From Lytechinus pictus (lineage: Eukaryota), in NCBI RefSeq assembly GCF_037042905.1, contig NC_087252.1:3288001-3352000 (forward strand): 64,000 bases of DNA, read 5' to 3'. Below, in pieces: positions 24,001-62,814 of the stretch. The notes under the pieces were generated by a model, which worked only from the letters and a program-made list of their open reading frames with translations, had not been told where the DNA came from and did not search any database. Positions within the stretch are counted from its first letter, which is position 1. Every line of letters starts with the position of its first letter. A program made the position numbers and the translations under genes.

Positions 24001-24136
24001 TCTCAGTAAACAGCTTATTGCAATATTTGTCAACATCTTGATGACCAAGCGCTTACTACGCAGTATATATATATACATATATATATAATGTAGCACAATG
24101 TTGAAATCGAAATTGATTTACAGCAATGTTAATCCT

Positions 24137-27382: not shown

Positions 27383-27444
27383 CTGGAGGAAGAGAGAGAG
27401 GGAAAAAATAGAAAAAAATAATAAGTTGAATGAGTAGGGTCCTG

Positions 27445-39200: not shown

Positions 39201-40627
39201 TACATGTATAACATAATATAAATTTACCATGGGGGAGTGTTTCATGACACAGGTCCCTGTTTATTCATATTTTCTTTATGATATGTAATTGAAGTATCCA
39301 CTTTTCAATTCAATTCAAGTTTATTTCCACATCTGATTAAAAACACAAGTACAAATTCATATGCAAGTAGATATATACAATAAGAAAACATTAAAATGAA
39401 ACATATTCAGTTCATAATCATAATGTGGTGGGAATTGACAAAGGCCTATTAGGGTTATTCATATAGGTAATAAAATTTACATAAAATGTTTCTTAAATAT
39501 ATATAAAATATAACACAAAACAATAGAAAAATTATAGACACACATGGAATTCAAAAATATAAGTGTAAATGAAATAACAGAAGACAACCAGACATTCTGG
39601 AGCCCACCCCCAGGCAATATTTTGTTAACTATTCTAGGATTCATTTTCAACTAGGTATTTTTTAAGATTTCTTTTAAACATATTCGAAGTAGGGCATATT
39701 TTGATTTCTTGTGGTAAATTGTTCCACTTTCACCGTTGAATTCAAATAAAACCTATTGTTTTTTTTTCGTTGTTTGTGTTTTTCAAAGTATGTATGACTG
39801 CTATAGAATTCTACTAATTCGTTTGAAAGGAAAATACTGATCTTGATTTATGAGTGTTCACTTTTTGTTACTAGGAACTTAGAATGTATATATTTATGTA
39901 ATGCATGTATTATGTAATGTATTATGTATGTATTTATGTAATGCATGTATTTATGTAATAAACGAATATGCTACTTCTTAAAAAAATGTATAACGTCTAC
40001 CATTCACTGTCAGGTTGATTCTGCACTCACTGCGGTAGTTGTTAGACAGCATGACAGCAGTGTATATACCCTCGTTGTCAAGTGAGATATTGTTCATTGT
40101 CAAAATGCTGACCGGTTGATGATTAACTTCAAGTGTGTGCATCGTTGTATTTATTTGACCGTCATTCTGCGTAGTCCATCTGAATAACACTGAGCCGTCA
40201 CTCACCCAGGAAATAAATTTTAATTGTTCGGTTACGGTGGTTAATATGCACTGGAGACGTACGTCGTCCCCAAAATTTGCTTCCTTATTTATATCTAAAA
40301 AGTAGAAATTATTAAAGAGAAAGACAAAAAATATGTAAGCGATTATATGAGTTTATTATGTACACAACCACTATTGTGAGCATTTATTAATAGCTGCTCC
40401 ATGACGGCCAAAAAAACGTAAACATAATGTTACTGAATATCGATGTAATGAACCGTGCAAGAATAGACATTTGTCAATCATGATACAATAATTTACAGGA
40501 TTATTGTGATATGACACAAAATGGGAATCTGTCATTGAAACGGCGACTCAATCTATTTATTCCAATGCTTACCTTGAGAACAAAATACCGATCCGATGGT
40601 GATAACCAAAATAAATAAATGCCACAT
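32949..40627 (-). CDS. Paralog B: apparently intact Ig-superfamily type I membrane receptor, ~447-455 aa
   Basis: Exons 40573-40627 (MWHLFILVITIGSVFCSQ), 40001-40294 (Ig1), 37533-37880 (Ig2), 36392-36496 or -36472 (T/P/S stalk), 35318-35437 (TM), 35166-35177, 33813-33904 (PLYANST), 32949-33290 (EYMEM...SVITTYL*). All GT-AG, phases compatible, no internal stops seen. Confidence 0.85.
33813..33904 (-). CDS. Paralog B cytoplasmic exon (AGDADTADGVAVTAMHQKDSNNEPLYANSTM)
   Basis: 92 nt, same splice sites as 5655-5746. Confidence 0.75.
34226..34625. mobile_element. Interspersed repeat related to 5081-5500, opposite orientation
   Basis: Shared segments such as GGACAAAATCGTATGGATCCAAAATTGCACGATG on opposite strands. 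Absent from the equivalent site in A. Confidence 0.6.
34809..34938. mobile_element. 130-bp MITE with 15-bp perfect TIR and 5-bp TSD
   Basis: CAGGGGCCGCGGAAC...GTTCCGCGGCCCCTG flanked by TTAAA. Empty site CCGTTAAAAGTG in A (~6265). Confidence 0.8.
35318..35437 (-). CDS. Paralog B transmembrane exon
   Basis: 120 nt, phase 1-1; DNCALLRIVIYILGGSLGAMILGLVAVTVSHKCLRHNTDR. Confidence 0.8.
36392..36496 (-). CDS. Paralog B putative stalk exon (two in-frame acceptors 24 nt apart)
   Basis: (GTTPPKYV)GTTHPIRYLATTPEKSNPSLASDEKAQ, 105 or 81 nt, phase 1-1. The donor CAAG|gttatt is weak. Confidence 0.5.
37533..37880 (-). CDS. Paralog B Ig domain 2 exon
   Basis: 348 nt, phase 1-1; TLVC...LEW...VMCRVAN. Confidence 0.85.
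38096..38794. mobile_element. piggyBac-like MITE (degenerate) in intron 2 of paralog B
   Basis: Right end CCGGCCTAGATAGGG|TTAA; left end TTGA|CCATATCTAAACCGG (imperfect TIR, mutated TTAA). Confidence 0.5.
39304..39790 (-). mobile_element. LINE 3'-end fragment
   Basis: Minus strand reads WNNLPQEIKICPTSNMFKRNLKKYL, followed by a 3' UTR ending in AATAAA and a (TTGAA)n tail. Confidence 0.6.
40001..40294 (-). CDS. Paralog B Ig domain 1 exon (V-like)
   Basis: 294 nt, phase 1-1; GDDVRLQC...ISW...NISLDNEGIYT...CRINLTVN. Confidence 0.85.
40573..40627 (-). CDS. Paralog B first coding exon (signal peptide)
   Basis: ATG at 40627, donor CAAG|gtaagc. Confidence 0.8.
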
Positions 40628-40890
40628 TTTTAGGAAAATATTTCATACAATTCAAGTGATGAAGACGAAATTATGAAGCAGTGTGAATATTTGTCACTGC
40701 CAAAACAACATCCAATTAACTACAGGGAAGCAGATAAATAAGCGTTGATTAGAGGTGGCGCTATTAAGTTATTTTATCGTGATAAGAATTTGTTTGTGAG
40801 AAGAAGAACAAACAACAGTAGAGTGAATTTGAAGAAATCAAATACGTTTTAACATAAGAAACATAAACAAACTCAAGGAATGGACAACAG

Positions 40891-43800
40891 TGGGGCGTTT
40901 CATCAAACAATTAGTCGGTGGTTTTCTCCGACTAATTGTGATTTTCACCGACTAATTTCATTTTCACCGACAATTTTGCCATCACCGACTAAATTCCATT
41001 TCATGAAAATTTGTCGGTGATTTTCTCCGACAAATTATTGGAAACCACCGACTAATTTTGTCGGTGGCCTTCACCTACCGACAAAACTTATTTTCACCGA
41101 CTAATCAGCCTTTTATGGACTTTAGCAGCTAAAATCGATCAATTTCAGTTGATTTTGAGTATAACATTTTAATAAATTGCTTATTTTTCATTTCATTAAG
41201 AAAATTCAAAGAAAATGTATTTATTTTTAGTCAATGACAAATAAAAAGTAGACATTTCAAGCATCATATTTTTATCTTTAAAACTATATTTTCATAAATT
41301 AATCGATACAATTTGAAAGGAAACACCTTCAAATGTACACATTTTTTCAAACATTCATGTTATTTTCTTCAACCCGAATAAATCATTGTGCATTTTTAAT
41401 CAATAATGTCTGAAAACTGTGACCTCATTGACTTTTGTACAAGTTTTTCAATATTCATTAGTGTTGTTGGTGTTGCTGCTGCTGTTGTCATCGTGGTTGC
41501 TGGAATTTCTGTTGTTTTTGCTGCTGCTCTTGTTGTTGTGGGTGTGGTTGTTGCATCTCTTACTGCAGTTGTGGTTTCGGCTGCTGATGATGTTGTTGCT
41601 CCTGCTGCTGTTCATGTTTATTGAAGTAACTGAAATGGAATTGATTTAAAGAGCATGTGATATTTTACTAATAAACATATTAATTTACATCATTATTTAT
41701 ATCAAAGTCATTAATTCCTAATCTAATTGTCATTGTTAAAACTTACATTTTTGTTATGTTTCAAATAATAACTTTAAATTCTAAATGGTTAAAGTATCGT
41801 CACCAAAGCCTTATTAAACAACGAAAACAAAAAAGTTAAACAAAGAAATGCATAAGAAAATGATTAAAATGTACATGTATACACAATTGATTTTAATGAC
41901 TTGGGTTTTTCTCATTGGTTTACCAAAGAAAGGGAGTCAAAATCCAAAATAATCACATTTGGTCTTTATTTCTTGATTTAGAGCAAAATGCTGATTTCAT
42001 GCAAGAGTCATGTTATCATAAAAAAAAAAACCAACATCAGGAGCAGCAGCATACCTGCTGATTTCTGAAGTGAGTGCACAATCAACAGGCAAGATCATGA
42101 GGCACGCCCCCCCCCCCCCATACCAAGATCATTTGAATTAGTGAGGTTTAATGACTGCTTCTGTAGTCATTACATTTATCTGATTTATACAGGCCTACAA
42201 GAGATATAAAAGAAATTGTGTTCTTTTTGGGGTAATCTTCCGGTATTCCTCCCTGACAAAGCAGATGGTGATGGTGTGTGTGGGGGGGGGGGTCTAATAT
42301 GAATGCAGAACAATGGAACATTATTTTACTACTTCGGCAATAGAAAGCAAGTCACACAATCTAGCATTGATTGATATTGTTGTTTTACAACTGTCCAAGA
42401 AATATCACAATTAATAATTTAAGCATCTAAGCACTTTATAGATGTCATTTTTTTCTTCAAATATTGACTGGTAGAAGACCAAATAATAAAGAGAACAGTA
42501 CCGGTAATTTTTTTTTTAATGTGACTTTACTTTCTTCGCCAAAATGAGGCAGTAATAATTAAGAGTGTTTTACCTTACAAGTGACATCACATTTCCTGCC
42601 TTCTTGTCTGGCTCTCCTAAACCTTCAACCATTTATACTTGGGTAACTTTGTATCTCATGTCTGTCTGAAAAGTTTGGGTGAAGCCTCCACCTGAATGAA
42701 AAATAGTATTGAAATAACTAATTAGAATATTTGCCATAATCTTGTATTTCTTCTCACATTTATATGTACATGTCTAAAAACAGGAAATAAAACATCTTTT
42801 GATAACCATACAGGTTTCATATAGAAGGGGGTAAATAAAGGGTTCAAGTTTTTATTATGTTAATCAAAAATACAAACAATAATAAATGACATGCTCTGGC
42901 TGAGAAACGTAAATAGAGAAATTATTCATCACAATGTAGCTTGTATGTACATACACATGAGAAAGTTGTGATAAATGGATTGAGGGGTGAGAGCAGGGGC
43001 TGCGGAAACGGGGGGGGGGGGGGAGGTGGTGCATGTTAGCTGCAGGGTCAGCGGAACAGTTTCTAAAGTGAGCGAGCTCACCATGCAAAACATCATATTT
43101 AAACCAAATGGTCATTTTACATTTTTCAGCCCCCGCATTGTTTTCCAAAACCATGTACACAAATTTAAAATTGACCATCTGCTAATGATTTTTGCATGGT
43201 CAGTCCCCCCCCCCCCCACTTTCGGCTCAGCCCCCTCACTTTCAAAACCACTCCGCTGACCCTGCAGCTAACATGCAAAACATATTGATTCTTTTATATG
43301 TCTTTCATGTTTATGTAATATTTGCATTACAAACTGACTTTGATTAGAAAATCTGGTCAAAGTCTGATTTCATTGTCATTGATGTGGGTTTTAATGATTC
43401 AACATTCTGCAACCCCAAAAATATCCTTCATTATTTTGTAATCATTATCGCATTTTACTAGTCTACATGTTACCTGTGGTTGCATTTCAATCTCAGTATT
43501 TCTTCACCCATTGCCAAATCTTCTGCCACATGTTCATCAGATTGGCCGCTGGCATATTCCTTGCTGTAGTAGACCAGTCAGAGCCTAGCTTTCTAGTTCC
43601 AGACCCGTCTTCTTCTGCATATTGTTAAAATGTCCATAGTCTGAAATTAAAATATTAATAATATCACATTGATATACATGTAGCAAATAAAATATGTAGA
43701 TTTACACAGTGATCATTGAAAAATACTGCACTTTCAATGAATATTGTTGACATTTCATAAAGGGGGATGATCAAATATACCAATAATTGTTCTTCTTTTA

Positions 43801-45660
43801 TTATCCTGAAATTTATAGAATTTACCAACAAACGGTCAACAATTTATCCTTGTTAATTCATATAATTTTCAATTGATTATAAACAAGACGGTCATTAACA
43901 CATTAACCATACAAATAGTAAAACAGTTTTTTCAATAATTTTTTTTAATTCAAATATAATTTTTTTTTTTCCTAACCCAATAGCGCTTGGATACCTTGCC
44001 GGTTAAAAGCCACAATCAAATTAATGAAAAAATATGAATAGGCTCCTAATTCATAACTGCAGCAAATTGCATCCCCATCAAACTGTCAACTATTTCTGGA
44101 CTGTGACCTTTGTTCAATGGAACTTTAATGAGATTCAAGACAGAAAAATACTTGGGATTGATGAGATCCATTACATATTCTCCTATAAAAAAATGTTCTA
44201 GTGAAGAGACCTTTAACCTTTACATGCTATTCAAGGTTAGGTGTGACTAGACTCTTAACTTTATGTGGTAGGACAATATTTTTCAAAAAATAGATTAAGA
44301 GACATTATCAACAATAGTTTAATTTATTTACCCCAATAACACTGATGCTATTGCAGATTCAGTGTCAAAATTTATAGGATGCTAAATAGTAATTTGTTTT
44401 AAAAAATGACTAAGAAAAATAAAAGCAAAACAAACTTCATAATCGCACACAAATGAGGAGCATTATTTCGTCTCCACCCAATTTGGACAATCAATCTTTT
44501 TTAAAAGGGAGCTATGCAATGGCTCATTTCACGTGGGTGCGCAAAGTCAAAGATAATTTAAGATAGATCTAGGTCTATATGGGCTATACCAGTTAGTATA
44601 CTAATACTAACCTCGCAATACGTGTGAGTGTACCAGTAAGGCCACGGGCCGGGTGCACCATTTAAAACATGGATCTAAATTCTAATTTTATTTAAATTCT
44701 TATTGGGTGTGAATGCACCTCTGCCACAATCGCATCACCCCCCCCCCCTGAATACTTGCCAGCCGTCAAGAGCCTTCACTTTATTCGACTTGTGACTTGC
44801 TAAGCCTATATGCTAAATAAGTTGAGAACATTCAATTTACCAAATTACCACTCAAACTATTACCATGTGATCTAGCTCCTGTTCAATTCCAATATCTGTA
44901 ACACAGAATTAGGATGGCCCCATTGGATATGTGTACATTAACAATTACACAGGCTGGTTTGCCTGGTGATCGAGGATATCTACGACCACACCGAGCAACA
45001 CAATCAATCCAAAACCAAAGGAAATGAAAAATTATGAGATGTAACATAGAATGACATAAAGGTAGAACAATACAAAGTATTCTCTTTGCAAAATTTATAA
45101 AATTGCAGCCATGTGCGGATCATAAAAACGTGTATGGACAGCCGTGTCGTTAGTTTGGACCTGAGATAGTTCTACAGACACAGAAACACGGGTATGGGAC
45201 TAGACTGGATTATGTGCTGTCAAGTTTATCGATCGTATCGACAGGGGTCCTGCCAGAAGATTCTCTTTTCTTGTAATTCGTTTGATAATTACGCACAACG
45301 AATAATTCAATCACCTTACATACAATATGAACGACATTTTGAAGGGTTTTACTTACGGTAAAATCCTCATTCACCTCTCCTGGAACCTTCGCTTCTTCTT
45401 ATTTCTTCGTTTCACTTCGCATCGTCGCGTCGAAAACATCAACCAATTTTAAATCTTCTTCACGACTTTGGGAGTGGGCGTGGCCTAATTAGTCAGCGAA
45501 CCTCGTTCAAGACGATTTATAAAATAAAAATTCTCTGACAATAGTCAGTGGAGCTCCGAGAGTTTCATGAAATGCAATTTTTGTCAGCGCTGACTAAATT
45601 GTCAGCACTGACAATTCAGCGTTGACAGTTGTCGCGCGACAATATTAATGAAACACCCTC
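40891..45660 (-). mobile_element. ~4.8-kb old PIF/Harbinger-like element with degenerate internal exons
   Basis: Imperfect TIR GGGGCGTTTCAT / ATGAAACACCC, CAG on both flanks (40888-40890 / 45661-45663), and subterminal CACCGACTAA and CTGAC repeats. Exon-like blocks on the minus strand (~43474-43640, ~42574-42690, ~41400-41630) contain stops. Confidence 0.6.
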
Positions 45661-46870: not shown

Positions 46871-48505
46871 TTGACCTTGCCCCAGATTTCAAGGCACTGC
46901 ATCTCCATGTGAACAATAATCACATCATGTAGGGCAGCCATTCTCATTTACTTTTTTTGAAGCTCCACATTTCTTGTTGAGAATCTGTAATGCGCCACTA
47001 TCCATTACGCAAACCAGCAAAGTATTGCGGAGGGGGTCCAGAGGCACCTGTTTGGGGTCGAGGGGGCAGAGCCCCCAGAAGTTTTGGAGTTATGACGACT
47101 TTTAAATTGTCCAGAGGGGATCTAATTAATATCAAGAGAAGAAATACAAATGCTAACAAACTACACAATATTTATTAAAATTGAAATTAGTGACTTTTTC
47201 ACAACATACCAATGTTAACACTAGTTCAGAGCAGTGGCGTAACAGGGGTCGGTGGCCAGGGGGGGCAAGAGCCAAAAATTTCCCGGTCATATCATGGTAT
47301 GAACAGGCGTATGGTGTAATGAGGCGACGATTTTGAGATGGCCATATGTTCTGAATCAGGCAGAATTTATCTTTTTAAAAAAATTGTGAGCGAGCGAAGC
47401 GAACGAGCAAATTTTTTTACATTTTTAATACAAAAATCCAATTTTGAGATCGATTTTGACACGATATCCAGAGAATAATATAATTCACCCTTCTCTCTTT
47501 CCATTCCCTTTTTGTGGTCTGTATATGCCACTGTGAACAGGATTCTTTGCAGCAGTAGCGTGAAGAGTTAAAAAACGAAAGGCGCAGTATGGCGCAAGTG
47601 CTAAAAAGCTGCTTAATATATGTCCCGAGCGAGCGAATCGAGCGAGAATAAGAAATCACATTTTCATGAGAATTTAACTTTGAGATATTTTGTTACATTA
47701 TATTCAGTAAATAAAATCATATCCTACACTTTTATTTAGCTTTTCTTTCCTCCTTTTTTTCTTGGTTGTAGAACTTTTGGGGGCCATGGCCCAACCCTTC
47801 CTTATTCATATCCGGCAGTGCTTTGCGGTTGGGGTCCGTCTGAAACCCCCGGAACTTCTTGATATCAAAGCCTTTTATACCTCGCAGATTGCCGCTATTT
47901 TTAATCAAATCACGAGTATATACAGAATATAGCTTTTACACAACACATTTATTCAACCCAGTTGAACCAAATATTTCAAGGGGGCAAAACATAGCAATGT
48001 GGGAAAATTTGTAAAAAGGCGCTGGAAAAAAATGCCTATTGAAATTAAATTTTAATTATGTGATAACACATTTCATTGTTTCCATTCATTTCATTACACG
48101 TTGTCTCCTATAATTTCTTTTATTTCCTCTTGAGTGTGGAACCAAGACCCCCCCCCCCCCCCGCTTGTACGCCAGTGATTGAACGTAAAGCTTAATGTAG
48201 GAAGGGTCCCTACAGGGGGGCGTTATAGAGCCATTTGAAGGTTATACACTACTCAAAAAAAAGTTAAGGACCACTTTTTAAAACGTACATAAAGATTTTA
48301 TACAAGGTGTTTTATTTCTGGAAATACCTCAGTACAACTGTCCTAAATGTCCTTAAACACGCTGTAATCAATTTCACGCATGGGTGGTTTCAGTTGTTGC
48401 ACAATGTCTCTCGCATCACTGCACATCCTGAAAAGTGGGCCCCGAGGGGTATCAGCTACCGACATGAAGTGGTAAAAACGAATGTCTGAGTGTCTTTCAG
48501 GCAGT

Positions 48506-49549
48506 TCAGTAACGAGTGTGACCACCTCCTGCAGCAATAACGGCTTCACAGCGCTGTCTCATGGAGCTGATGAGGCGATTGATGTCTCTGACGTCCAGTG
48601 CATCCCATGCAGCCTCCAGAGCCACACCCAGCTGCTGCAGTCCAAGTGGATGGGCTTCGAGCTGCTCGAGACTCCTCCCCATCATGTCCCAGACGTGCTC
48701 TATCGGGTTTAAGTCCGGGGACCTCGCTGGCCACTCCATACGCTCAATCCCCTGGCCCTCAAGGAACTCGGTCACCACCCTAGCTCGGTGGGCACGGGCA
48801 TTTTCATCCATGAAAATGATGTTTTGTCCCACATTTTCTGCAAATGGCACCACTATAGGTTCAAGGACCTCATCCCTGTACCTCACTCCTGTCATTGCTC
48901 CCCCTGGGACCACGTAGAGACGAGTACGGTTGGCGTAGGTGATGCCTCCCCACACCATGACGCTGCCTCCCCCATAACGGTCATGTTCTGCAATACAGGG
49001 GTCTGCAAATCTCTCTCCTGGTCGCCTCCAGACTCTCGAACGTCCATCATTGTGGTCAAGGGAAAATCTGCTCTCATCTGTGAACAGAACTCTACGCCAT
49101 TGCTGTCTGGTCCATCTGTTATGCTCCCGGGCCCAGTTGAGACGAATTCTTCTGTGAGCAGGGGTGAGTGGGACACACTGAGCTGGCCGTCTGGCATGCA
49201 TATTGGCTCTGTGAAGTCGGTTACAGATTGTTTGAGTGGAAACAATCACTCCAGTTGCTGCAGCGAAGTCATTGTTGAGGCGGCGTGCACTGTGAAAGCG
49301 GTTGCGGAGGCTGAGATTCGTCAAGTAGCGATCATCTCTAGGGGTTGTCGAAACTGGTCGGCCACTGCGGGGTCTCTCGGAGTATAGCCCTGTCTCTCGG
49401 TGTCTTTGATTTGCTCTGCTAATGACACTGTGTGACACGCCCATCATTCTGGCTACTCTTCGCTGACTGAGGCCAGCTTCCAGCATCCCTAGGGCTCTGG
49501 CTACATCTGTTTCACTTAGGTGGTGTCTTGGCATTGCTGTTGTAGGCAA
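48506..49549 (-). CDS. Tc1-family transposase, full length (likely ATG at 49533, MPRHHLSETD)
   Basis: Paired HTH region, RSGRP AT-hook, WRRVLFTDESRF, GGGSVMVWG, FMDENARAH, WPARSPDLNPIEHVW, C-terminal GGHTRY. Confidence 0.93.
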   Translation of the reverse strand: MPTTAMPRHHLSETDVARALGMLEAGLSQRRVARMMGVSHSVISRANQRHRETGLYSERPRSGRPVSTTPRDDRYLTNLSLRNRFHSARRLNNDFAAATGVIVSTQTICNRLHRANMHARRPAQCVPLTPAHRRIRLNWAREHNRWTRQQWRRVLFTDESRFSLDHNDGRSRVWRRPGERFADPCIAEHDRYGGGSVMVWGGITYANRTRLYVVPGGAMTGVRYRDEVLEPIVVPFAENVGQNIIFMDENARAHRARVVTEFLEGQGIERMEWPARSPDLNPIEHVWDMMGRSLEQLEAHPLGLQQLGVALEAAWDALDVRDINRLISSMRQRCEAVIAAGGGHTRY

Positions 49550-49925
49550 GTTGTTGATTGTACAGACTAAAGACGGAAAATGCTTTGGAAGACACTTGTC
49601 TTATGGCCCACTGCAATGATGCCAGAGACATCATGAAAGAACTGCATGTGTGAAATGATGTCATTGTGTTTGATGGCATTCTGGACAGCTGTATCTTGGC
49701 ATTGCTATTGTCAGCAAGTTGTTGATTGTAGAGACTAAAGACAGAAAATGCTTTGGAAGCCACTTTTGTACGGGCACATGGCAATGATGCAAGAGACATG
49801 AAAGAACTGCATGTGTGAAATTGATTTCATTGTGTTTGATGGCATCCTGGACAGCTGTATCTTGGCATTGCTGTTGTCAGCAATTTGTTGATTGTAGAGA
49901 CTAAAGACAGAAAATGCATTTGAAT
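49527..49925. repeat. ~165-168-bp tandem repeat (~2.4 units) in the spacer of the Tc1 palindrome
   Basis: TCTTGGCATTGCT.TTGT...GACTAAAGAC.GAAAATGC at 49527, 49695 and 49860. Each unit includes the transposase start-codon context. Confidence 0.8.
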
Positions 49926-49939
49926 CCACAGCCCTAGGG

Positions 49940-50920
49940 ATGCTGGAAGCTGGCCTCAGTCAGCGAAGAGTAGCCAGAATGATGGGCGTGTCACACAGTG
50001 TCATTAGCAGAGCAAATCAAAGACACCGAGAGACAGGGCTATACTCCGAGAGACCCCGCAGTGGCCGACCAGTTTCGACAACCCCTAGAGATGATCGCTA
50101 CTTGACGAATCTCAGCCTCCGCAACCGCTTTCACAGTGCACGCCGCCTCAACAATGACTTCGCTGCAGCAACTGGAGTGATTGTTTCCACTCAAACAATC
50201 CGTAACCGACTTCACAGAGCCAATATGCATGCAAGACGGCCAGCTCAGTGTGTCCCACTCACCCCTGCTCACAGAAGAATTCGTCTCAACTGGGCCCGGG
50301 AGCATGTCAGATGGACCAGACAGCAATGGCGTAGAGTTCTGTTCACAGATGAGAGCAGATTTTCCCTTGACCACAATGATGGACGTTCGAGAGTCTGGAG
50401 GCGACCAGGAGAGAGATTTGCAGACCCCTGTATTGCAGAACATGACCGTTATGGGGGAGGCAGCGTCATGGTGTGGGGAGGCATCACCTACGCCAACCGT
50501 ACTCGTCTCTACGTGGTCCCAGGGGGAGCAATGACAGGAGTGAGGTACAGGGATGAGGTCCTTGAACCTATAGTGGTGCCATTTGCAGAAAATGTGGGAC
50601 AAAACATCATTTTCATGGATGAAAATGCCCGTGCCCACCGAGCTAGGGTGGTGACCGAGTTCCTTGAGGGCCAGGGGATTGAGCGTATGGAGTGGCCAGC
50701 GAGGTCCCCGGACTTAAACCCGATAGAGCACGTCTGGGACATGATGGGGAGGAGTCTCGAGCAGCTCGAAGCCCATCCACTTGGACTGCAGCAGCTGGGT
50801 GTGGCTCTGGAGGCTGCATGGGATGCACTGGACGTCAGAGACATCAATCGCCTCATCAGCTCCATGAGACAGCGCTGTGAAGCCGTTATTGCTGCAGGAG
50901 GTGGTCACACTCGTTACTGA
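49940..50920 (+). CDS. Tc1-family transposase, N-terminally truncated second copy (lacks ~16 aa)
   Basis: Same protein from MLEAGLSQ onward, with two amino-acid differences (C/R, N/V). Confidence 0.88.
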   Translation: MLEAGLSQRRVARMMGVSHSVISRANQRHRETGLYSERPRSGRPVSTTPRDDRYLTNLSLRNRFHSARRLNNDFAAATGVIVSTQTIRNRLHRANMHARRPAQCVPLTPAHRRIRLNWAREHVRWTRQQWRRVLFTDESRFSLDHNDGRSRVWRRPGERFADPCIAEHDRYGGGSVMVWGGITYANRTRLYVVPGGAMTGVRYRDEVLEPIVVPFAENVGQNIIFMDENARAHRARVVTEFLEGQGIERMEWPARSPDLNPIEHVWDMMGRSLEQLEAHPLGLQQLGVALEAAWDALDVRDINRLISSMRQRCEAVIAAGGGHTRY

Positions 50921-52052
50921 ACTGCCTGAAAGACACTCAGACATTCGTTTTTACCACTTCATGTCGGTAGCTGATACCCCTCGGGGCACACTTTTCAGGA
51001 TGTGCAGTGATGCGAGAGACATTGTGCAACAACTGAAACCACCCATGCGTGAAATTGATTACAGCGTGTTTAAGGACATTTAGGACAGTTGTACTGAGGT
51101 ATTTCCAGAAATAAAACACCTTGTATAAAATCTTTATGTACGTTTTAAAAAGTGGTCCTTAACTTTTTTTGAGTAGTGTAGATGAAGAGCCCTTACTGCG
51201 TGGGGTCCGGGAGCTTATTTGCATAAAATTGAGCAAGCTTATAGTTATAGCACAATGTTGTATATGCAGTCCATCTTTCTTCCCGCTCTTTATTTTCTAT
51301 CCTCGGCAGTGCCCGGTCATGTTATTGAGTTTTTTTCTTGTCCCTTTTCTTTGTTTTCCAATTTAGCTTTTCACTAATTCCATTCTACCTTCATTTCCCG
51401 CTATTGTTTGGCATTTTGTCATCTTTTCATTTATTTCCCATCACGCTATTGCATTACATAGGCCTATTTCGGAATGATTTGTTCTTTCTCAAATATTGTT
51501 TCGTTCCTTTCCCGCTTTCCTTCCTTTTCCATTAAAAATATTGTTTTCTTTTCACTTTTCCCTTTCCTTTTCCCCTTTCCTTCTTCTTTCCCTTTCTTTC
51601 TCCCTCCCTTTTCTTTTTTTCCCGTTTTTTTTATTTTCCCGCTGAAATCCGCCAGGGGGGGGGCAACTTGCCCCCCCTGCCCCCCCCCCCCGCCTGTTAC
51701 GCCACTGGTTCAGAGTGACGTAATGAGTAAAAAAAATGAGGGGCTAGATATAGCAGCTGGAGCAAAAATTTTGATCTTTTCAATAACAAACCCTATATTT
51801 TGACATAATATGAAGAAAATAATACAATATTCCACTCTTTCCCTTTCCTTTTCTTCTTTTTTTTTCTTGGCCGTAAAACAGTTGGGGGCCCCCAATCGCC
51901 ACCCCCATCTGTACGCCAGTGGCTGAAGTTTACATTCCCCGATTTTGCAAGGGCTGAAAATCAGGCGTTGAACTGCACTAACGCCCCAAACTGCCCCTAT
52001 CTCTCTACTAGACTAGACCCATTCTGGAAAAAGAGGCCTGTATAAACTTTAA

Positions 52053-55000
52053 GAAGCATTTTGGGGTAAAAGTTGGAAACCGGACTATTTCACACAATTC
52101 AAATATGTTGAATCTGATAAGATCGGTTCCCAAGCTAATTTCTCATGTTTTGACCACCTAATTTGCATAAACAAAATTGCTGCCAAATTGACAATTCAGA
52201 ATATTATTTCGACAATGTTCTTTAATTATATTCGCTTTCACAGACATGAATACTGCAAAATCCTGCATACATACGTGTACCTTTCGGGAAAACCTGTTAT
52301 TTTTGTTTGCGGCTAATTAATTATGCAAATTTATGCATATTTTGGATCATTATGCTATAATTTGATAATTTCAGCTCAAATGTTTTTATTTCTGGTACAA
52401 ATAGCATTTACATCATTATGAATAATTGAACGATCCTTAGAATATAATATCACAGTGAATAATAATGTATTTTATTGTTTTTGAATTTCTTATGTATTTC
52501 TTTCTATTTTGTACCTTTTGTTTTGTACATGTTTTGTTATGGGATCCGTCAAATTATTGATTATCAGTGGAAGAAAATAATTAGCTTTAATGATTTAATT
52601 ATGTAATCACATTTTTATTCTAATATATCCATGGTCATAAACAGATGCACCCACTCCCACACCCACATCTGCATACAAAGGTAAACTCCTGCACGGAGGG
52701 CCTTCCCATTTAAAAGCACACTGGTGGAGATTCAACGAATTTCACGAACCTATCTGTATTCAAGCGAATGTCACTATTAATTGCTTATATTTTTATCATA
52801 AAATGTTATCTTGAGTTATGATATCAATCAATTCATTCATATTTACAATTTTGGATGATGAATTGTTAAATTTGAATCATAACAGTACTGTAATTCTCAA
52901 CTCCTAATAGTCAATCAGTTGCATTTAATATCCTTTGGAGTAGTTATGTTCCCGACCAACAGAATCTGATCACACATACATGTATTTATATTTAGTGTGT
53001 TTTTCTTCAGCAAAATGAAGTGAAAACCGTCTGCTGAAAATGAGATGTCCTGTGTTTTTCTCCATTACGCTCGTCAAATTGTCCTAATATTGAAAAAGAA
53101 ATTCTCAGAACTGAATCCACATAATTATAATCCATTTAATTTCTCATTTTGCCTATCATTTATACCGTTTTCCGTGTTTTAAAAGCCAGACTGTGATGTT
53201 CTAAAGTTTCACAACGAATAAGTCACTGCATATCCCTTTAGTAACAATTTTTTTTAATTGGACTTCATTAACGGATTACATGTGCATCTCCATAATATAT
53301 ATTTTCCAATGCAGTACTGCACCTGTCCTATCAAGGATTGCCACTTCATCCAACTTAGAGGCATCCAGCTTCCCCCAGCTTGATATACACCTTTATTTTT
53401 GGGGTGTTGAATGATCAATGTCAGTCATCATCGATTTGGTGTTCCATTGGATGGCTTGATTGATAGGGCAGCCTCATATTATAAAAGTCATCTCTAATTG
53501 TTGAAATCAAACCAATTTAGTACAAGTATTCTGCGGAGGCAGTTCGTATCGAAGTCATCGTGTTTGTGTTCTTGAGATATGTCTGATTCTCATGTCACAG
53601 ATCCATAGAGAAACCTAAACTTTTGTCTTGAGAGAGAATCTGCTGTCTAACCGGATCTTGTTTCAGGTGTTAAAATGCTCGGAGTGCACATTTTCAATAC
53701 CGCAGTGAATTGTGTAATGTCTTCTAGGCCATTTATCGAACTACTAATATTCACACATCTTCATATCTTCATAAGATAGACTATTTCAAATTGATAACGA
53801 AGACATCTTTCTGAGGATGGTCGGTTCCTGGCATGTTTGGCGCTCCTGTAGGTGATTATTAATCCACTTATTTTGATCGGTATTAAACCCAACAGCATCC
53901 AATAGCTTACCCAGTTCTGATAGGCTGCATGCTAGTCTGAGATAACACCATCAAAGTCTAGGTCGAGAATTTCTTCGATTGTAGAGCCAGGATTTCTCTT
54001 TCTATGAGGAAAGCAGTTGCCTAAGTTATGTTTGACTTGTCAACCGGTTTTGATACCAGTGAACATGTCATTCTCTTGGGAGACTGACAGTCTGTTTTGG
54101 AATTGATGATTCTGCACTCCAATGGCAGGTTTCCTCTTACCTTGCCAATAGAGCTGTATGAAGCTGTATTCATCACTGGCATGCAGTCTCCTGTGACTAC
54201 CCTTTGATATAGAGTTCCTTTGGAGTCTGTCCTTGTCCCTTGTTCTTCAAGCTGTACATCACTCCTCTTGGCTCTGTAATGTGGCGACATGGTCTTGGTA
54301 TACACTTCTATGCTGACGACATCCAGCTGTATACCTCACTTTTGATCCAAAAGGTAAATATACAGAGGTTTGAGCAGCTGCCGTTGTTGGTGCTGCAATT
54401 GAGGATTCGATGTCGGATGAAGGTCAACTTCCTGGAGCTTAACAATAAAAAGCGAAGTATCTTGTTCTGTCATCTCCATATATGCGTAATTATTATGACT
54501 ACAACTCCAGTCTTAATAGGCAAGGAAACTATATATCTCCAGTATGCAAGTCTAGATCTCTTGGCGTAGTCTTTGATAAAACAATGAGCATGAAGAAACA
54601 CACATCACATGTCTGCCAGAATTGCTGAGATCAGACATTGTCTTACATGAGGTGGTGCAGAAAATATCATCCATGACCGGATAACCTCTAGACTGGACTT
54701 CTGCAACTGTCTCCATGCTGGTTTACCTTCAACAGGCATCTCTAGCACTTTTTAACCATAGGACACACTGTGAAAATTTGTTCTGCATTGGGTAGTGACT
54801 GGGCTGGATACCTTGTTCTGCCCATGTTTTAACCATGGAGCTAATCTGTGTTTAGCCCCATGTTTTTATCATTTCCTCTTCTGTATTCAGTATCGTTCGT
54901 CAAAGAATCTTCCAAGGCAGGGACTAAATAAAAGCTATGGTTTTCAGTTATCATTTTGATGGTTGACTTGGGGGAAATGTATCGTTGCCAAATAAATAAA

Positions 55001-56041
55001 TAAATCGGTAATGACCAAAAAAACTAGTAAGTGATCCAGTAATACAGACCCTTTGCATTTATTACAAATTGTTATTTGGTTAACTGCCATGATTGCAGTT
55101 CTGATGGAGCTGAATCAAAGACATAATTTTGCTACAAGGATAATAACAATGTACTGATACTTATATCCGATTGATAAACTACACTGCGTAAATTATACGT
55201 TTAATTGATTATTTGATCTGTTATAAAACATTTTAATATATCTATTTCAAGAAATTTAAGTTCAGCATGATTACAGGTTTTCCAACTTCTAAATTCTTCT
55301 TTTCTTTAATACGGGTTCATTGAATTTGGTAATTGTCTTGATTATAGGATCAGCATCAATGTTTTTATATTGGGCATGTCTACTATACCTTGCAAGTATA
55401 TTACTTTCTATGTACAGGTGTGCATGTGGGAGCATGTGTGTGTATTTGTTGCTGAGTACAATTAACAGTTGTGGCAAAAGAAGTTTATCAAAAGATTCAA
55501 TCATTGAAGCTTGATATTTGTCTGCCATTGATATTAGTTTTTTAAAGATCTCATATCAAACATATACAAAGCAAATGGCAGAAAATACAAGAACACAAAA
55601 GAAATATCAAAGAACAAGAAAATACATATAAAAATTGACTTAAGAATTATATTTAAGGGCCAAAAAATTATCATAATGATACAAATGGTATTTGTACCCA
55701 AAATAATAAACATTTTAGGTGTAGTTATTAAATTATAGCATAATATTGCAAAATATGCATAAATTTGCATAATTAATTTGCCGCAAACAGAAATAACAAG
55801 TTTTCCCAAATGGTACATGTTAAGTATGCAGGATTTTGCAGTATCCATATCAGTGAAAGCGAATATTATAAAAGAATATTGTAAAAATAAGATTATAAAT
55901 TGTCAATTTGGCAGCTATTTTGTTTATGCAAATTAGGTGGTCAAAACATGAAAAATTGGTTTGGAAACCGGTCTTATCAGATTCAGCACATTCAAATTAG
56001 GTGAAATAGACCGGTTCCCAACTTTTACCCCAAAATGCTCC
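52053..56041. mobile_element. Kolobok-like non-autonomous element with ~550-bp imperfect TIRs
   Basis: TTAA|GAAGCATTTTGGGGTAAAAGTTGG... and ...CCAACTTTTACCCCAAAATGCTCC|TTAA. Inverted similarity extends over ~52053-52600 vs ~55495-56041. Confidence 0.7.
54000..54760 (+). pseudogene. Degenerate L2/CR1-type reverse transcriptase fragment
   Basis: [30 protein letters not shown] and RLDFCNCL motifs across frameshifts and stops. Confidence 0.8.
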
Positions 56042-56825
56042 TTAAACTCAAGACCATATTGGTCTTGTCTATACAACTCTCGTGCAGTATCATTCATTCA
56101 GTTCGTGTTAAGCAAGAGTGCATGCAGGCAATCACGGCAGGCAACACATCTGAGCATATTTCACTTTTACAACTTCGGATTTTAATCGGCTTCGGAAACA
56201 AAGTTTCTGCTTGTTATATCCAAAATTCATAATATTTTATTGATCAGGATGTTATTTGATTTGATGTATAACTCTTAACCAAACGTTTACTCTGGAAATG
56301 CAAAATTACTCGCCGTAGAAATAGAAATCCTACAAACAAGGCTTTCAAATAACTTGTGTGGCACATAAACTTAGTACAGCTTAAATAAAAATGAGCACAC
56401 CATCGATCCTTCATACTAGGGGTTATTTATCGAGTGCTAAATTGGGCAAAATTTGAAAAGAGAAATCAATTTAAAGTGTCAAGTAAAGAGTTTTTGTCTT
56501 CTCTTTGTATGAAAATGATTAACTAATCCTTATTTCCAGCCCAGGTTACTGGTAGATATATTTTTTTCTTCCCAATTTTTCCTTTTTTAATACTTTTTTT
56601 TTATACCGGCTCCCAAGCGCTACTCCGCAAGGCTTGGTGCGCCACAAGTGGCACGCGCGCCACCATTTGAGAATCCCTGATGTAGGGTATCAGTTTAAAG
56701 AAAATGAAATGCTTTATTCATTAATATTAATTAAACATTGATATTTGCTAAAACCGAGGAGAAATGACCGACCAAAGTCAGATTTCTAAACTGTTTTCGT
56801 GAGGAGTATATATATATATATATAT

Positions 56826-58545
56826 AATAATCACAAAAGGTTTAGTAAATGCCGTAAAAATAAAATCGTAGATTTTAAAAGGAGCATAGCTCTCAAAAAT
56901 GAAAGGTAAAGTCACACTCTTCGTCAGTGCCCATGATGTGACAAAAAAAAAGAGAATTCAAAATCCGTTTCTGAAACAGTCGTGAAAAACACGTCTATTC
57001 ATGAGCATACGGATTGTGAAACTCACCTTTCAAAGAAATCAATGCGCTGAAGATGGAGGAAGCGCACTGTAAAAGACGCATCTAAAGACGCGTTACCATG
57101 ACTGCAAGATGACAATGGCGAATCTCCGGCTCCAAAACAGGAAAATCTGAAAAGGGCCTCACCGCCAACAGTCGAAGTTTAGCAGTAAAAAGTACCTGAG
57201 TAAAATAGAAATAGTCTGCTTCGGCATAAGGAATAAAATAATCACAAAAGGTTTAGTAAATGCCGTAAAAATAAAATCGTAGATTTTAAAAGGAGCATAG
57301 CTCTCAAAAATGAAAGGTAAAGTCACACTCTTCGTCAGTGCCCATGATGTGACAAAAAAAAAGAGAATTCAAAATCCGTTTCTGAAACAGTCGTGAAAAA
57401 CACGTCTATTCATGAGCATACGGATTGTGAAACTCACCTTTCAAAGAAATCAATGCGCTGAAGATGGAGGAAGCGCACTGTAAAAGACGCATCTAAAGAC
57501 GCGTTACCATGACTGCAAGATGACAATGGCGAATCTCCGGCTCCAAAACAGGAAAATCTGAAAAGGGCCTCACCGCCAACAGTCGAAGTTTAGCAGTAAA
57601 AAGTACCTGAGTAAAATAGAAATAGTCTGCTTCGGCATAAGGAATAAAATAATCACAAAAGGTTTAGTAAATGCCGTAAAAATAAAATCGTAGATTTTAA
57701 AAGGAGCATAGCTCTCAAAAATGAAAGGTAAAGTCACACTCTTCGTCAGTGCCCATGATGTGACAAAAAAAAAGAGAATTCAAAATCCGTTTCTGAAACA
57801 GTCGTGAAAAACACGTCTATTCATGAGCATACGGATTGTGAAACTCACCTTTCAAAGAAATCAATGCGCTGAAGATGGAGGAAGCGCACTGTAAAAGACG
57901 CATCTAAAGACGCGTTACCATGACTGCAAGATGACAATGGCGAATCTCCGGCTCCAAAACAGGAAAATCTGAAAAGGGCCTCACCGCCAACAGTCGAAGT
58001 TTAGCAGTAAAAAGTACCTGAGTAAAATAGAAATAGTCTGCTTCGGCATAAGGAATAAAATAATCACAAAAGGTTTAGTAAATGCCGTAAAAATAAAATC
58101 GTAGATTTTAAAAGGAGCATAGCTCTCAAAAATGAAAGGTACTCAGGTACTTTTTACTGCTAAACTTCGACTGTTGGCGGTGAGGCCCTTTTCAGATTTT
58201 CCTGTTTTGGAGCCGGAGATTCGCCATTGTCATCTTGCAGTCATGGTAACGCGTCTTTAGATGCGTCTTTTACAGTGCGCTTCCTCCATCTTCAGCGCAT
58301 TGATTTCTTTGAAAGGTGAGTTTCACAATCCGTATGCTCATGAATAGACGTGTTTTTCACGACTGTTTCAGAAACGGATTTTGAATTCTCTTTTTTTTTT
58401 TCACATCATGGGCACTGACGAAGAGTGTGACTTTACCTTTCATTTTTGAGAGCTATGCTCCTTTTAAAATCTACGATTTTATTTTTACGGCATTTACTAA
58501 ACCTTTTGTGATTATTTTATTCCTTATGCCGAAGCAGACTATTTC

Positions 58546-58661: not shown

Positions 58662-60629
58662 TGTGACGGAATCGCTGGGCGGGGTGGTTGGGTGGTCCGC
58701 CGGCAGCTCGCTCTTGTCAGGATGCCTGCCGCCGGCGGGTGTCTTGCCACGTCGATTTCCAAACTTTTAGTCGCGGATCCGTTTGGCAGAGATATACTGC
58801 CGCAGTTGACACTTGCACAAGCCTCGAACCAGCCAGTTCCACCACCAGGCAACCTCCAGACGGCTACACTCTTTATTTGTCAGCTCCTACAGTTCACCCG
58901 ACCATATGCATCTAGCTTGTGTAGTTAAGCTCCCCGACCATATGCATCTGATTCCTGTAGTTAAGCTCTTACGACCATAGGTATGGGTTCCTCTGTAGTT
59001 AAGCTCCCACGACCATACCCATGGACTCTGCTTTACATGTAACTTCTTCCGTCGTCTGCTCCGTACTGCAACCACGTCTGCATTCAGTACAGCAACCATG
59101 CACGTCTAATTTCGTACTACAACCACGTCTGTTCAGTACCGCAACCACGTCTGTTCAGTACCACGACCACGTCTGAGTCCGTACTGCAACCACTGGCATC
59201 TGTTCAATACCGGAAACTACGTCTGGTTCCTCGACCATATTCAGTGGCGTAACAGGCAAGCTGCCCCCCCCCCCCCCCTCCCTGGCGGAGCTCACCGGGA
59301 AAATAAGAAAAAACGGGAAAAACAAAAAAAAAGGGGGGAAGAAAGGGAAAGGGAAAGGAAAAAAAAAGGGGGAAGTGGAAAGGGAAAAGAAAACTAAGAA
59401 AAAACACAAAAAAGGGAAAACGGAAAGATAACGGGAAAAGCAAGGAAAGAAGAACAAGTGAGAAAGAACAATTCTCCCCGATATACAAATACATTAGCAT
59501 GATTAGTAAGACAGGGAAATAAATTAAAGATGAAAAAAAAGCAAACAAAAGCGGGAAATAAAGGCAGAATGGAATTAGCCAAAATCTAAATTGGAAAATA
59601 AAGAATAGGGACAAGATAACGTACACTACCGGGCTGCCGAGGATTGAGATAACGAGCGGGAAGAAAAATGGATGAAATATAGCATAATGTCGTATGAAAG
59701 TCTATCATAATCTTGTTAAATCTCCAAAGGCTCTGTCCAAGAGTCAAGACCCCGTGCAGTGGGGGCTCTTCATCTGTAACCTTTAATGGGTACTATAACG
59801 GGCCCCTATATGGACCCTTCCTGCATTAAGCTTTACGTTGAAGCACTGGCATACCGGGGGGTGGTTCCACAGCCAAGGGGAAATAAAAGAAAATAAAGGA
59901 GGCAGCGAAATGACATGAATGAAAAAAAAATACATGACATGATATTTGCTATAATGATGTAAAAATCGATCACATAATTAGAATTTCATTTTAACAGGCC
60001 ATTTTTTTTCTGGCTCGCTTCGCTCGCTGGCGACTTTTTACAAATTTCCCCATATTTGCTATGGTGTGCCCCTCACAATATTCGGATGATTACGATACAC
60101 AACTGCATTGAATTTATGTGTTGTGTGAAAGCTAAGTAAATATACACGCAATTTGATTAAAATTAGTGGCCATCTGTAAGGTTTAAAATGGCTTTGATAT
60201 CAAGAGGTTCCGGGGCTCTACCCTGGACCCCACCCATAAAGCACTGTTATATGGATGAGTTTGGACCATGGCCCCCAAAAGTTCTACAACCAAACAGAAA
60301 AAATGAGGAAAGAAAGGAAAGTGTATTATATTTTTCTGAATATCACGTTAAAATCTATCTTCATGTTAGATTCTCATGAAAAGGTGATTTTTTATCTCGC
60401 TCGCTTCGCTCGCTCGGGACCTATATTAAGCTACTTCTTGCCACAAGTGCCATACTCGGCCCCCTCGAGCATATAGAGCTTCGCCCTGATGCTCAAAATC
60501 ATAACAAAAAAATGTTCACCGTTATGTAACATTATGTCAAAATCTATCACAAAATTTGATTTTTGCAATAAAAATGTCAAAAAATTTTGCTCGCTCGCTC
60601 GCTTTTATATATATATATATATATATATA

Positions 60630-61464
60630 ATGAGATGAGGCAAGGCCAACTCAACAGATGACGCAGGACACCATTATTTGCTTTAGCTTTCGTCTTTTAA
60701 TTGAGACTTCGTCAGAAGCGTCTGAAAAATATAAGGAGATACAACATCCAAGTTTGTTTTGCACATCAATGAATTATCACCAAGTTGAATATATTCCATA
60801 ATGACAAATTAATGAATGAACAGATAAATAAAGTAATGAATAATACATAATTAATTCAATTAAAATAATAATGATATAAATGAAAAAGACATACCTGTAA
60901 TTACAGACTATTGTGATAGTTAAGTATGACCGTATCCTATCTCGTTCTTTAGGAAAGTGGCAAAAATTGCAAAAAGAAAACATTGGTTGCTAGGTGGTGA
61001 AAGCGCAAAGCGCATTGGTAATGCGCATAAAATTTATGTCACAATGAGTATGAATATTCATGATATTAGATATCGTAAGCTAGCAACCAATGTTTTCTTT
61101 TTGCAATTTTTGCCACTTTCCTAAAGAACGAGATAGGATACGGTCATACTTAACTATCACAATAGTCTGTAATTACAGGTATGTCTTTTTCATTTATATC
61201 ATTATTATTTTAATTGAATTAATTATTTATTATTCATTACTTTATTTATCTGTTCATTCATTAATTTGTCATTATGGAATATATTCAACTTGGTGATAAT
61301 TCATTGATGTGCAAAACAAACTTGGATGTTGTATCTCCTTATATTTTTCAGACGCTTCTGACGAAGTCTCAATTAAAAGACGAAAGCTAAAGCAAATAAT
61401 GGTGTCCTGCGTCATCTGTTGAGTTGGCCTTGCCTAGCGATTGGTAGAAGTAAACTTATCATCA

Positions 61465-61470
<6 letters not shown>
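60630..61470. mobile_element. Penelope-like inverted pseudo-LTR pair in a (TA)n tract
   Basis: 356-bp arms 60638-60993 and 61080-61435 (one mismatch seen), 86-bp spacer, (TA)n flanks, and a hammerhead motif in each arm. Confidence 0.75.
61354..61393 (+). ncRNA. Minimal type I hammerhead ribozyme motif (mirror copy at 60680-60719, minus strand)
   Basis: GCTT-CTGACGA-A-GTCT-caattaaa-AGAC-GAAA-GC-TA-AAGC. Stem I GCUU/AAGC, intact CUGANGA and GAAA cores, stem II GUCU/AGAC, palindromic AGCU stem III. Confidence 0.7.
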
Positions 61471-61503
<33 letters not shown>

Positions 61504-62814
61504 CCCGATACGCCATATCGCCCCCTCAAACTTTTTGCCTTATGACGCCATTATCTGTTCCATGATATATGACCGGGAAATTATTGGCTCTTGCCCCCCC
61601 TGGCAACCGACCCCTGTTACGCCGCTGGTATGGGTCCTTCTGCAGTCAGGCTCTCACGACCACACCCGTTGGCTCTGCTCTACATGTAGTTCCCACCGTT
61701 GTCTGCTCCGGACCTCCGACCGTCTGCTTCAGACCAGCAATCATCCGCTTCAGACCAACCCGTCTGCTCCGGACCACCAGCCGTCTGCTCCAGGCTCCGA
61801 ACCGTCCGCCTCCAGACTACCAAGAGAGCAAGCCCTGGTATAGTCTCTTGCTGGCGTGCAAAAGACCCAACACACAAGGAAATCTAACCACAGTCGTCGC
61901 CTAGGACTAGAGATCCATCCTAGGTTTCCCCGTGGAAAGACATGCGAACGATCAAATAAATCATTTCGATCGCATCCACCAACTTTATTTATTGGATAGC
62001 GAATCCGAATCAATCTGCATACTTTACGTGCAATGCCACCCGTGGGCGCCGTATTTTAACAGATTATTGGCAATGCCACACAAGCACACAATCTTAACGT
62101 ACTTGTGCATTAATTATACATTTTCTGTTAAAGTTAACCTCTGCTACAATCTTAGATTAGCTATAACTTTGCTCTCCGAAATCGGATATGCATGAATGAC
62201 ATATCATATTAAAGCATTTATTTAGATCAAGCTAGTGATAACCACAATAACCAGTTAAACATCTCCAGTAAATTGTTATACAACAAAAACGGTCCAAAAC
62301 ATGCATAACTTTCATGTTGTTATCTACGTCATTATTAGTGTAGAAACATGCATGTAGTATCGCCAGCTACGACAAAATCATTATAAATCAACCAAAAATA
62401 ATTTTCTACACACGAAATAAAACCCATTTCGTGACAATATATATAAATTATGCGTGAGTGTGTCTGAGTACATCATATTCATGATTACAAAGTGTGCTTA
62501 GTACAATAGAGCTTTCTTGGCGAAAAAAAAAGATATTTTCGGCTTGTCAATCGTGCTCGCAATATTTCATGGGTGAGATATGAATTTTATGAGACACTGA
62601 CAAGGGGTACTTTTGCAGGTCACTATATTCATGATATTAACATTTTCAGCTTATATAGATATAAACAATGAACGTGTTTATGTCTACGCAATTGTACCAT
62701 CATGAAAAGTTTAACAAAAGTATATAGCTCGATTACCATACCATTATTTTGGAATGAAATAGATAATTTATAGGTGCAAATTTTCTGGTAACTTAAGGTG
62801 GGCTAAATGCATGG

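What the first reader, a model, noticed from the sequence alone, without database searches (positions are those of the whole stretch)
48247..51178. Palindromic Tc1 element: two divergent transposase genes, two 3' ends, one clean TA insertion
Seen: 1.25-kb inverted arms each run from near the transposase start to the 3' TIR, around a 433-bp spacer, so there is no ordinary 5' end. The related hAT copy shows the empty site (AAGGTTACAGATGAAGAG on the minus strand near 59775, vs AAGGTTA-TA[Tc1]TA-GATGAAGAG). The arms differ at about six positions, which argues against a simple assembly mirror. Inference: a foldback derivative that may transpose as a unit. Read-through would give long hairpin RNA able to silence the whole family, as Mu killer does in maize.
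Basis: partly seen in the sequence, partly recalled or inferred. Interest (0 to 1): 0.7.

Follow-up and report, generated by a model that had tools for sequence, protein, structure and literature searches.

The report
Crippled mirror-image Tc1 transposon copy
This is a real 2.9-kb mirror-image copy of a young jumping gene whose front end was replaced by a reversed copy of its own back part, likely by a DNA-repair accident of a kind already described in insects; both enzyme genes carry the same active-site change and are probably dead, and nothing shows that it has jumped as a unit or silences its family.

Summary
The structure is real as described: 1,250/1,249-bp inverted arms (5 substitutions, 1 indel), a 433-bp spacer, TA on both sides, and flanks that join into an empty site. 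Public runs give the parent: an ordinary ~1.9-kb Tc1 (DD34E) whose own ~213-bp 5' end is what was replaced here. The spacer, with its 166-bp repeats, is the parent's normal 5' region. Both arms carry E at the second catalytic aspartate (D244E), found in 0 of 144 relatives and 0 of 4 runs. So the arms come from one template, and neither gene is likely active; the right one also lacks 16 N-terminal residues. Each arm has since gained its own changes, which argues against an assembly mirror. The junction was seen in 0 of 4 runs, but none is host genomic long-read data, so mobility is neither shown nor excluded. No host exon pair was found spanning the element, and there is no small-RNA evidence. 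Best reading: TIR-to-TIR template switch during gap repair, the model proposed for Goblin; same architecture as Rpmar49/Rpmar17 and Galileo. A new member of a known kind.

The parts
47232..51707 (+). Host repeat: non-autonomous hAT-like element (CAGTGG...CCACTG ends, 8-bp duplication at 47224-31 and 51708-15) into which the Tc1 inserted
   Evidence: the hAT label rests on the 8-bp duplication and end motif (recalled), no transposase found
48245..48246 (.). Left TA of the target-site duplication
48247..49496 (-). Left arm: 3' TIR, 3' UTR and transposase ORF from nucleotide 39 on; the original part of the resident copy (inferred)
48247..48280 (+). Outer ~34-bp TIR, the part that the parent's 5' and 3' ends share; A8 here, A7 at the right end
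   Evidence: (X10 record 11)
48311..48316 (-). AATAAA, the only canonical polyadenylation hexamer on the minus strand of the element
48506..49534 (-). Full-length Tc1 transposase ORF, 342 aa, D153-E244-E279 (D244E), plus private R104C and V139N
48803..48805 (-). D244E codon in the left arm
49497..49929 (-). Spacer: the parent's own 5' subterminal region and first 38 nt of the ORF; 2 differences from the family sequence in the runs (49780; one T missing after 49655)
49523..49929 (-). 2.4 tandem 166-bp units (89% alike), each ending in a copy of the start-codon region and beginning with sequence like the inner 3' TIR; also present in the parent
49926..49930 (+). Rearrangement junction: 1 nt of exact and 4 of 5 nt of imperfect microhomology between the spacer side and the ORF donor
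49930..51178 (+). Right arm: inverted copy of the 3' 1,249 bp, standing where the parent has its ~213-bp 5' end; private changes at 50233 and 50988
49940..50920 (+). 5'-truncated transposase ORF, 326 aa, lacks residues 1-16 (start of the first HTH), D244E
50621..50623 (+). D244E codon in the right arm; all 4 runs read the D codon
51110..51115 (+). AATAAA, the only canonical polyadenylation hexamer on the plus strand of the element
51179..51180 (.). Right TA of the target-site duplication
59245..61627 (-). Diverged paralog of the host repeat (70-74% over the matched parts) that shows the empty site near 59775, with CA in place of TA

Best explanation
It is a rearranged, probably non-autonomous copy of a young ~1.9-kb Tc1 transposon in which the 5' end has been replaced by a 1.25-kb inverted copy of the 3' part, likely made at this site from this one copy by a template switch during DNA repair. 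Shown: the parent's anatomy, the missing ~213-bp 5' end, the TA duplication, D244E in both arms, and private changes in each arm. Inferred order: (1) an ordinary copy inserted at the TA; (2) it acquired D244E; (3) after a break, most simply excision from one chromatid by transposase supplied in trans, the repairing strand copied the outer ~34 bp of the 5' TIR, switched to the identical outer 3' TIR, copied 1.25 kb inward, and rejoined the spacer at a short microhomology; (4) the arms then drifted apart. It would move only with transposase from another copy, and would give a long hairpin RNA only if transcription enters from a flank; neither is shown.
For: Parent anatomy from three contig sets: ordinary joint 49497/49930 in X3, X1, X10; 5'-end joint 49930->50984 in X1, X10, X22. 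D244E in both arms; D in 144 of 144 fetched relatives that cover the site (145 of 148 aligned), in 3 of 3 contig sets and in 19 of 19 raw reads. The position aligns with the catalytic D244 of Sleeping Beauty, where the conservative swap E279D is used as the inactive control (PMC6943129, passages). Private changes in both arms: right 50233, 50988; left 49225, 49119-20. Exact empty site in a contig of X1. Microhomology at the junction. No record crosses the junction in 4 of 4 runs; depth in the junction bin of the three contig sets is fully accounted for by ordinary pieces (40.2, 136.8, 15.6; the X1 sum uses two unlisted pieces inferred from tables 3 and 5). The same mechanism is proposed for Goblin (PMC3814204, passages) and for Galileo TIR extension (PMC3573991, Discussion).
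Against: No host genome or long reads were available, and contigs drop rare variants, so copy number is untested. The single-template argument rests on one shared change, which could also come from a D244E sublineage or from conversion between the arms. The microhomology is weak (1 nt exact). A local head-to-head reinsertion followed by deletion gives the same end product. D244E itself has not been assayed; a search for it found no relevant paper. Unchecked notes from this scan report about 150 right-right Tc1 elements in this genome, some at several sites.
Confidence: 0.6

Rival explanations
1. The mirror-image element formed elsewhere and jumped here as a unit, moved by transposase from intact relatives; other copies with the same junction exist in the host genome.
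For: Clean TA duplication. Both ends keep the outer ~34 bp that the parent's ends share. The family is young, with intact ORFs in relatives. Rpmar49 amplified to 13 independent copies (PMC4678618, section read). Mos1 with two right ends transposes 26 times better than the natural pair (PMC4505599, passages). Unchecked scan notes describe mobile right-right Tc1 elements in this genome.
Against: Junction in 0 of 4 runs and 0 matches in metagenome contigs (a weak test). No other right-right joint of this family in those runs. In-place repair also leaves a clean TA. End preference can go the other way: Mboumar-9 with two right ends is three times weaker than natural, and Sleeping Beauty has an enhancer in its left TIR (PMC8151067, passage). 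The scan notes did not match this family by sequence.
Confidence: 0.22
2. A sister copy reinserted head-to-head at the same TA, giving a perfect ~3.8-kb palindrome that was then stabilised by an off-centre deletion of both 5' ends.
For: Gives the same product, including the shared D244E if the second copy came from the sister chromatid. [quoted passage not shown] Deletion between close copies is the model offered for Rpmar49/Rpmar17.
Against: Needs two rare events rather than one. No TA or 5'-TIR remnant at the junction. Two unrelated family copies are nearly excluded by the shared D244E.
Confidence: 0.13
3. The palindrome is an assembly or library artefact (fold-back read or chimera).
For: No read or contig crossing the junction was obtained; no long reads were available.
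Against: A fold-back read would mirror one flank, but the two flanks are different and join into the true empty site. Each arm has its own changes against the family sequence while both share a change that the runs lack.
Confidence: 0.04

Closest known systems
Rpmar49 and Rpmar17, mariner lineages of Rhodnius prolixus (PMC4678618; passages and second part of section 13 read)
   Same: 5' part replaced by an inverted 3' part that includes transposase sequence; long TIRs; the longest Rpmar17 copy (>1,700 bp) exceeds its 1,319-bp parent.
   Different: Those are mariner, mostly under 1 kb and multi-copy (13 and 227 copies). This is a DD34E Tc1 with 1.25-kb arms holding almost the whole ORF, 2.93 kb long, seen once.
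Goblin MITE from the Tc1/mariner element Ozma, Aedes aegypti (PMC3814204; passages read)
   Same: [quoted passage not shown]
   Different: Goblin is 213 bp, has 15 copies and 6-8 nt of microhomology; here 2.93 kb, one known copy, 1 nt exact (4 of 5 imperfect).
Galileo copies with extended TIRs, Drosophila mojavensis (PMC3573991; passages and Discussion read); Dromar7/11/28/36 (PMC4161770; passages)
   Same: TIRs lengthened by copying from the opposite end past the TIR.
   Different: Galileo is P superfamily; the Dromar cases replace the 3' part with the 5' part, the reverse of this.
Mu killer of maize (PMC3440606; passages read)
   Same: Both TIRs from one end; about 1.3 kb of transposase gene in inverted duplication.
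   Different: Mu killer duplicates the 5' (promoter) end, lies between two host genes and silences genetically; that paper also disputes the read-through hairpin model. Here the 3' end is duplicated, no flanking transcription is shown and no silencing is shown.
Sleeping Beauty-type Tc1 DD34E transposase (PDB 5cr4)
   Same: Catalytic domain aligns (E 4e-28); triad at positions 153, 244, 279 with 34 residues between the last two.
   Different: Position 244 is E instead of D in both arms.

Membership tests
Tc1 (IS630-Tc1-mariner, DD34E) | Transposase with paired-like HTH domains and a DDE_3 catalytic domain | tested here: met
   PF13936, PF01498, PF13358 above cut-off for the left ORF; best solved match Sleeping Beauty
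Tc1 (IS630-Tc1-mariner, DD34E) | TA target-site duplication | tested here: met
Tc1 (IS630-Tc1-mariner, DD34E) | Terminal inverted repeats; 34 residues between second and third catalytic positions | tested here: met
Autonomous Tc1 element | Intact D-D-E triad in a full-length ORF | tested here: not met
   D244E in both arms; right ORF lacks residues 1-16
Autonomous Tc1 element | One 5' and one 3' end | tested here: not met
   The parent's ~213-bp 5' end, seen in X1, X10 and X22, is absent here
End-replacement derivatives of Tc1/mariner (Rpmar49/Rpmar17, Goblin type) | One end replaced by an inverted copy of the other end and adjoining internal sequence of an identifiable parent | tested here: met
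End-replacement derivatives of Tc1/mariner (Rpmar49/Rpmar17, Goblin type) | Amplified as a lineage: same junction at two or more independent sites | tested here: inconclusive
   0 of 4 runs and 0 metagenome matches, but no host genome and contigs drop rare variants
MITE | Short (under about 1 kb), no coding capacity | tested here: not met
   2,932 bp with 342- and 326-aa ORFs
Mu killer-type silencing locus | Long inverted duplication of transposase sequence able to fold back | tested here: met
   perfect stretches of 680, 270 and 174 bp
Mu killer-type silencing locus | Transcription through both arms or antisense transcripts from the locus | tested here: inconclusive
   No host exon pair spanning it was found; no junction-crossing RNA record; a long intron or non-coding transcript is not excluded
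Mu killer-type silencing locus | Small RNAs from the arms and heritable silencing of the family in trans | not testable with these tools
   No run labelled as small-RNA among the 24 listed

The most novel reading that the evidence does not exclude
A right-right Tc1 unit that is copied around the genome by intact relatives and acts as a two-way brake on its own family: whenever it lands in a transcription unit it yields a 1.2-kb hairpin RNA that meets no canonical poly(A) hexamer until the far arm, and its full-length D244E transposase binds ends but cannot cut. It would be a mobile, animal counterpart of Mu killer.
Probability: 0.04. Interest if true: 0.65.

Novelty: new member of a known kind. 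Interest (0 to 1): 0.24.

Why it matters
As found, it is a clear, recent example of how long-TIR and fold-back derivatives arise from ordinary Tc1 elements: parent, empty site, junction and the order of mutations can all be read. That supports a published but little-tested template-switch model. It would matter more if host data showed the junction at many sites or small RNAs from the arms, since that would give a natural route to family-wide transposon silencing in an animal.

Tried and rejected
No host genome is held, so copy number could not be counted. Junction motif in metagenome contigs: 0 matches; host DNA is not expected there, so this is weak. Transposase search of metagenome contigs: 13 loci, all distant (28-44% identity); none is a right-right element, though L003 has a short inverted ORF fragment beside it and L007/L008 an internal 356-bp palindrome. 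Viral contigs: none. Prokaryotic genomes: 6 weak HTH matches, ignored. Of 24 runs listed only 4 were laid, and only on 49497-51500; the shares of the other 20 are not used as evidence. Run X22 has reads on both strands about equally, but it carries a diverged, mostly internally deleted form, has no reads on the flank beyond 51238, and its strandedness is unknown, so it says nothing about a hairpin. The bacterial promoter scan is irrelevant to this host. Rejected: two unrelated family copies (shared D244E); the spacer repeats as a product of the rearrangement (they are in the parent); the window's paralog as proof of the target TA on its own (it reads CA). Scan look-ups by sequence and by nearby place found nothing. 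Paper searches; none showed a Tc1 with both arms covering nearly the whole ORF, but only listings and selected passages were read and subscription journals are not covered, so absence from print is not claimed. No supplements were opened; those of PMC4678618 may list longer rearranged copies.
Full report
Observation. The element runs from 48247 to 51178 (2,932 bp). The arms 48247-49496 and 49930-51178 are 99.4% complementary and differ by five substitutions and one base in an A-run of the TIR. The spacer is 433 bp. TA stands on both sides. With the element and one TA taken out, the flanks align without a gap to a 70-74% identical paralog on the minus strand near 59775, which has CA at the site. 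A contig of run X1 carries 28 bases identical to the left flank joined straight to the right-hand TA, which is the exact empty site, from this locus or a very close paralog. The host repeat (47232-51707) has an 8-bp duplication; calling it hAT-like is from recall of that pattern.

The parent. No host genome is held. I laid 4 of the 24 listed runs on the spacer, right arm and right flank. Contigs of X3, X1 and X10 join 49930 to 49497 on opposite strands, which is the ordinary gene running on into its 5' region. X1, X10 and X22 continue past 49930 with 18 further bases and then a 5' TIR that resembles the 3' TIR in its outer ~34 bp and, less exactly, at 50984-51057. Adding these pieces gives a parent of about 1.9 kb. 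So the spacer, including its 2.4 tandem 166-bp units, is the parent's own 5' region, and the rearrangement swapped about 213 bp of 5' end for 1,249 bp of 3' end. The junction has one exact shared base and four of five bases alike.

The genes. The left ORF (48506-49534, 342 aa) and the right ORF (49940-50920, 326 aa) are Tc1 transposases. The right one lacks residues 1-16. Both have E at position 244, which aligns with the second catalytic aspartate of Sleeping Beauty (PMC6943129, passages). All 144 fetched relatives that cover this site have D (145 of 148 aligned), as do 3 of 3 contig sets and 19 of 19 raw reads. D244E itself has not been assayed as far as one search shows; a similarly conservative swap, E279D, is the inactive control for Sleeping Beauty. 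I infer that neither gene is active. The left ORF also has private R104C and V139N.

Order of events. Against the sequence in the runs, one change is shared by both arms (50623/48803), two are private to the right arm (50233, 50988), two events are private to the left (49225; 49119-20), and the spacer has two (about one expected at the same rate). The shared change points to one template; the private ones show that the arms have existed separately for a while and are not a mirrored read. The numbers are small, and conversion between arms or a D244E sublineage could also explain the shared change.

Mechanism (inferred). A strand repairing a break copied the outer 5' TIR, switched to the identical outer 3' TIR, ran 1.25 kb inward and rejoined the spacer. 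This one event keeps the TA duplication in place. It is the model drawn for Goblin (PMC3814204, passages) and for Galileo TIR extension (PMC3573991, Discussion). The same architecture, 5' part replaced by 3' part, defines Rpmar49 and Rpmar17, for which deletion between two close copies was proposed instead (PMC4678618). That alternative, as a head-to-head reinsertion at the same TA followed by an off-centre deletion, gives the same product and stays open (PMC5932611, passage).

Mobility. A clean TA does not show movement as a unit, since repair in place leaves the same. No record crosses the junction in any of 4 runs; for the three contig sets the depth in the junction bin is fully explained by ordinary pieces (for X1 two unlisted pieces were inferred from other tables). 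The motif is absent from metagenome contigs. These are weak negatives: none is host long-read DNA and contigs drop rare variants. Movement in trans is plausible. Two identical ends can help (Mos1 right-right, 26-fold) or hurt (Mboumar-9 right-right, three-fold lower; PMC4505599, passages). Four unchecked notes from this scan describe other right-right Tc1 elements in the same genome, two of them citing about 150. They did not match this family by sequence and I could not test them; they raised my odds for mobility from about 0.12 to 0.22 and lower the novelty.

Silencing. A transcript crossing the element would fold: the central 1,034 nt give a 300-bp stem at -776.5 kcal/mol, perfect stretches reach 680 bp, and on either strand the only canonical poly(A) hexamer lies in the far arm. 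But outward transcription from the spacer yields sense RNA only. The recognisable host exons lie on the minus strand at or below about 45.4 kb and point away (exon calls by eye, untested), and none was found to the right. No run was labelled small-RNA. Mu killer differs in duplicating the promoter end between two genes, and its read-through model is itself disputed (PMC3440606, passages). The silencing idea is unsupported, not refuted.

Verdict. Real, well resolved, and of a described kind: a Tc1 end-replacement derivative, longer than the published examples I read and probably catalytically dead. Interest 0.24.

Noticed in passing
window 49930-51174 against runs X1, X3, X10, X22; protein P0121: Contigs of three differently labelled organisms (A, B, C) differ from the right arm at the same three positions only, so their family sequences are identical over about 1,245 bp; C has no match to the host repeat at 90%. 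A protein named from the sea spider Nymphon striatum is 89% identical. This suggests recent horizontal spread, but the organism names are coded and relatedness is unknown.
   Followed up: partly
window 49719-49914: Contig depth over one 166-bp unit is about 60% of that of the rest of the element in X3 and X10 (34.8/59.4; 6.69/10.3), hinting that family copies vary in unit number; the tool warns that depth is no copy number.
   Followed up: no
window 50438 in run X22: Most RNA reads of organism F come from an internally deleted form that joins 5'-TIR sequence to position 50438, on both strands and running into varied flanks.
   Followed up: no
window 6636-13841 and 21749-31015: Two opposite copies of a ~7.2-kb element, 97.5-99% identical, with CACTG...CAGTG ends and 2-bp duplications (TG; TT): a young CACTA/EnSpm-like transposon (label recalled); the second copy has a ~2.1-kb insert.
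   Followed up: partly
window 56822-58552: 3.2 tandem 411-bp units (99% alike) followed by one inverted 413-bp unit, between (TA)n runs: another young fold-back structure.
   Followed up: no
window 60638-61435 and 52048-56046: 356-bp perfect arms around an 86-bp spacer between (TA)n runs inside the host-repeat paralog; and a ~4-kb element with ~550-bp arms at 82% that holds a decayed reverse-transcriptase-like stretch near 54213-54566.
   Followed up: no
window 13862-20009 and 35118-40767: Tandem paralogs (76-84%) of a minus-strand gene with immunoglobulin-like exons (one weak V-set match, below cut-off) and a signal-peptide-like first coding exon near 19.9 and 40.6 kb.
   Followed up: partly
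window 41399-45430 (minus strand): Candidate spliced transcript with a donor near 45358 and a Thr/Ala-rich frame at 41399-41611; read by eye, untested.
   Followed up: no
L003:3499-3659; L008:3356-3711: Distant Tc1 copies with an inverted ORF fragment just outside one end (L003) or a 356-bp palindrome inside the 5' region (L008, also L007).
   Followed up: partly
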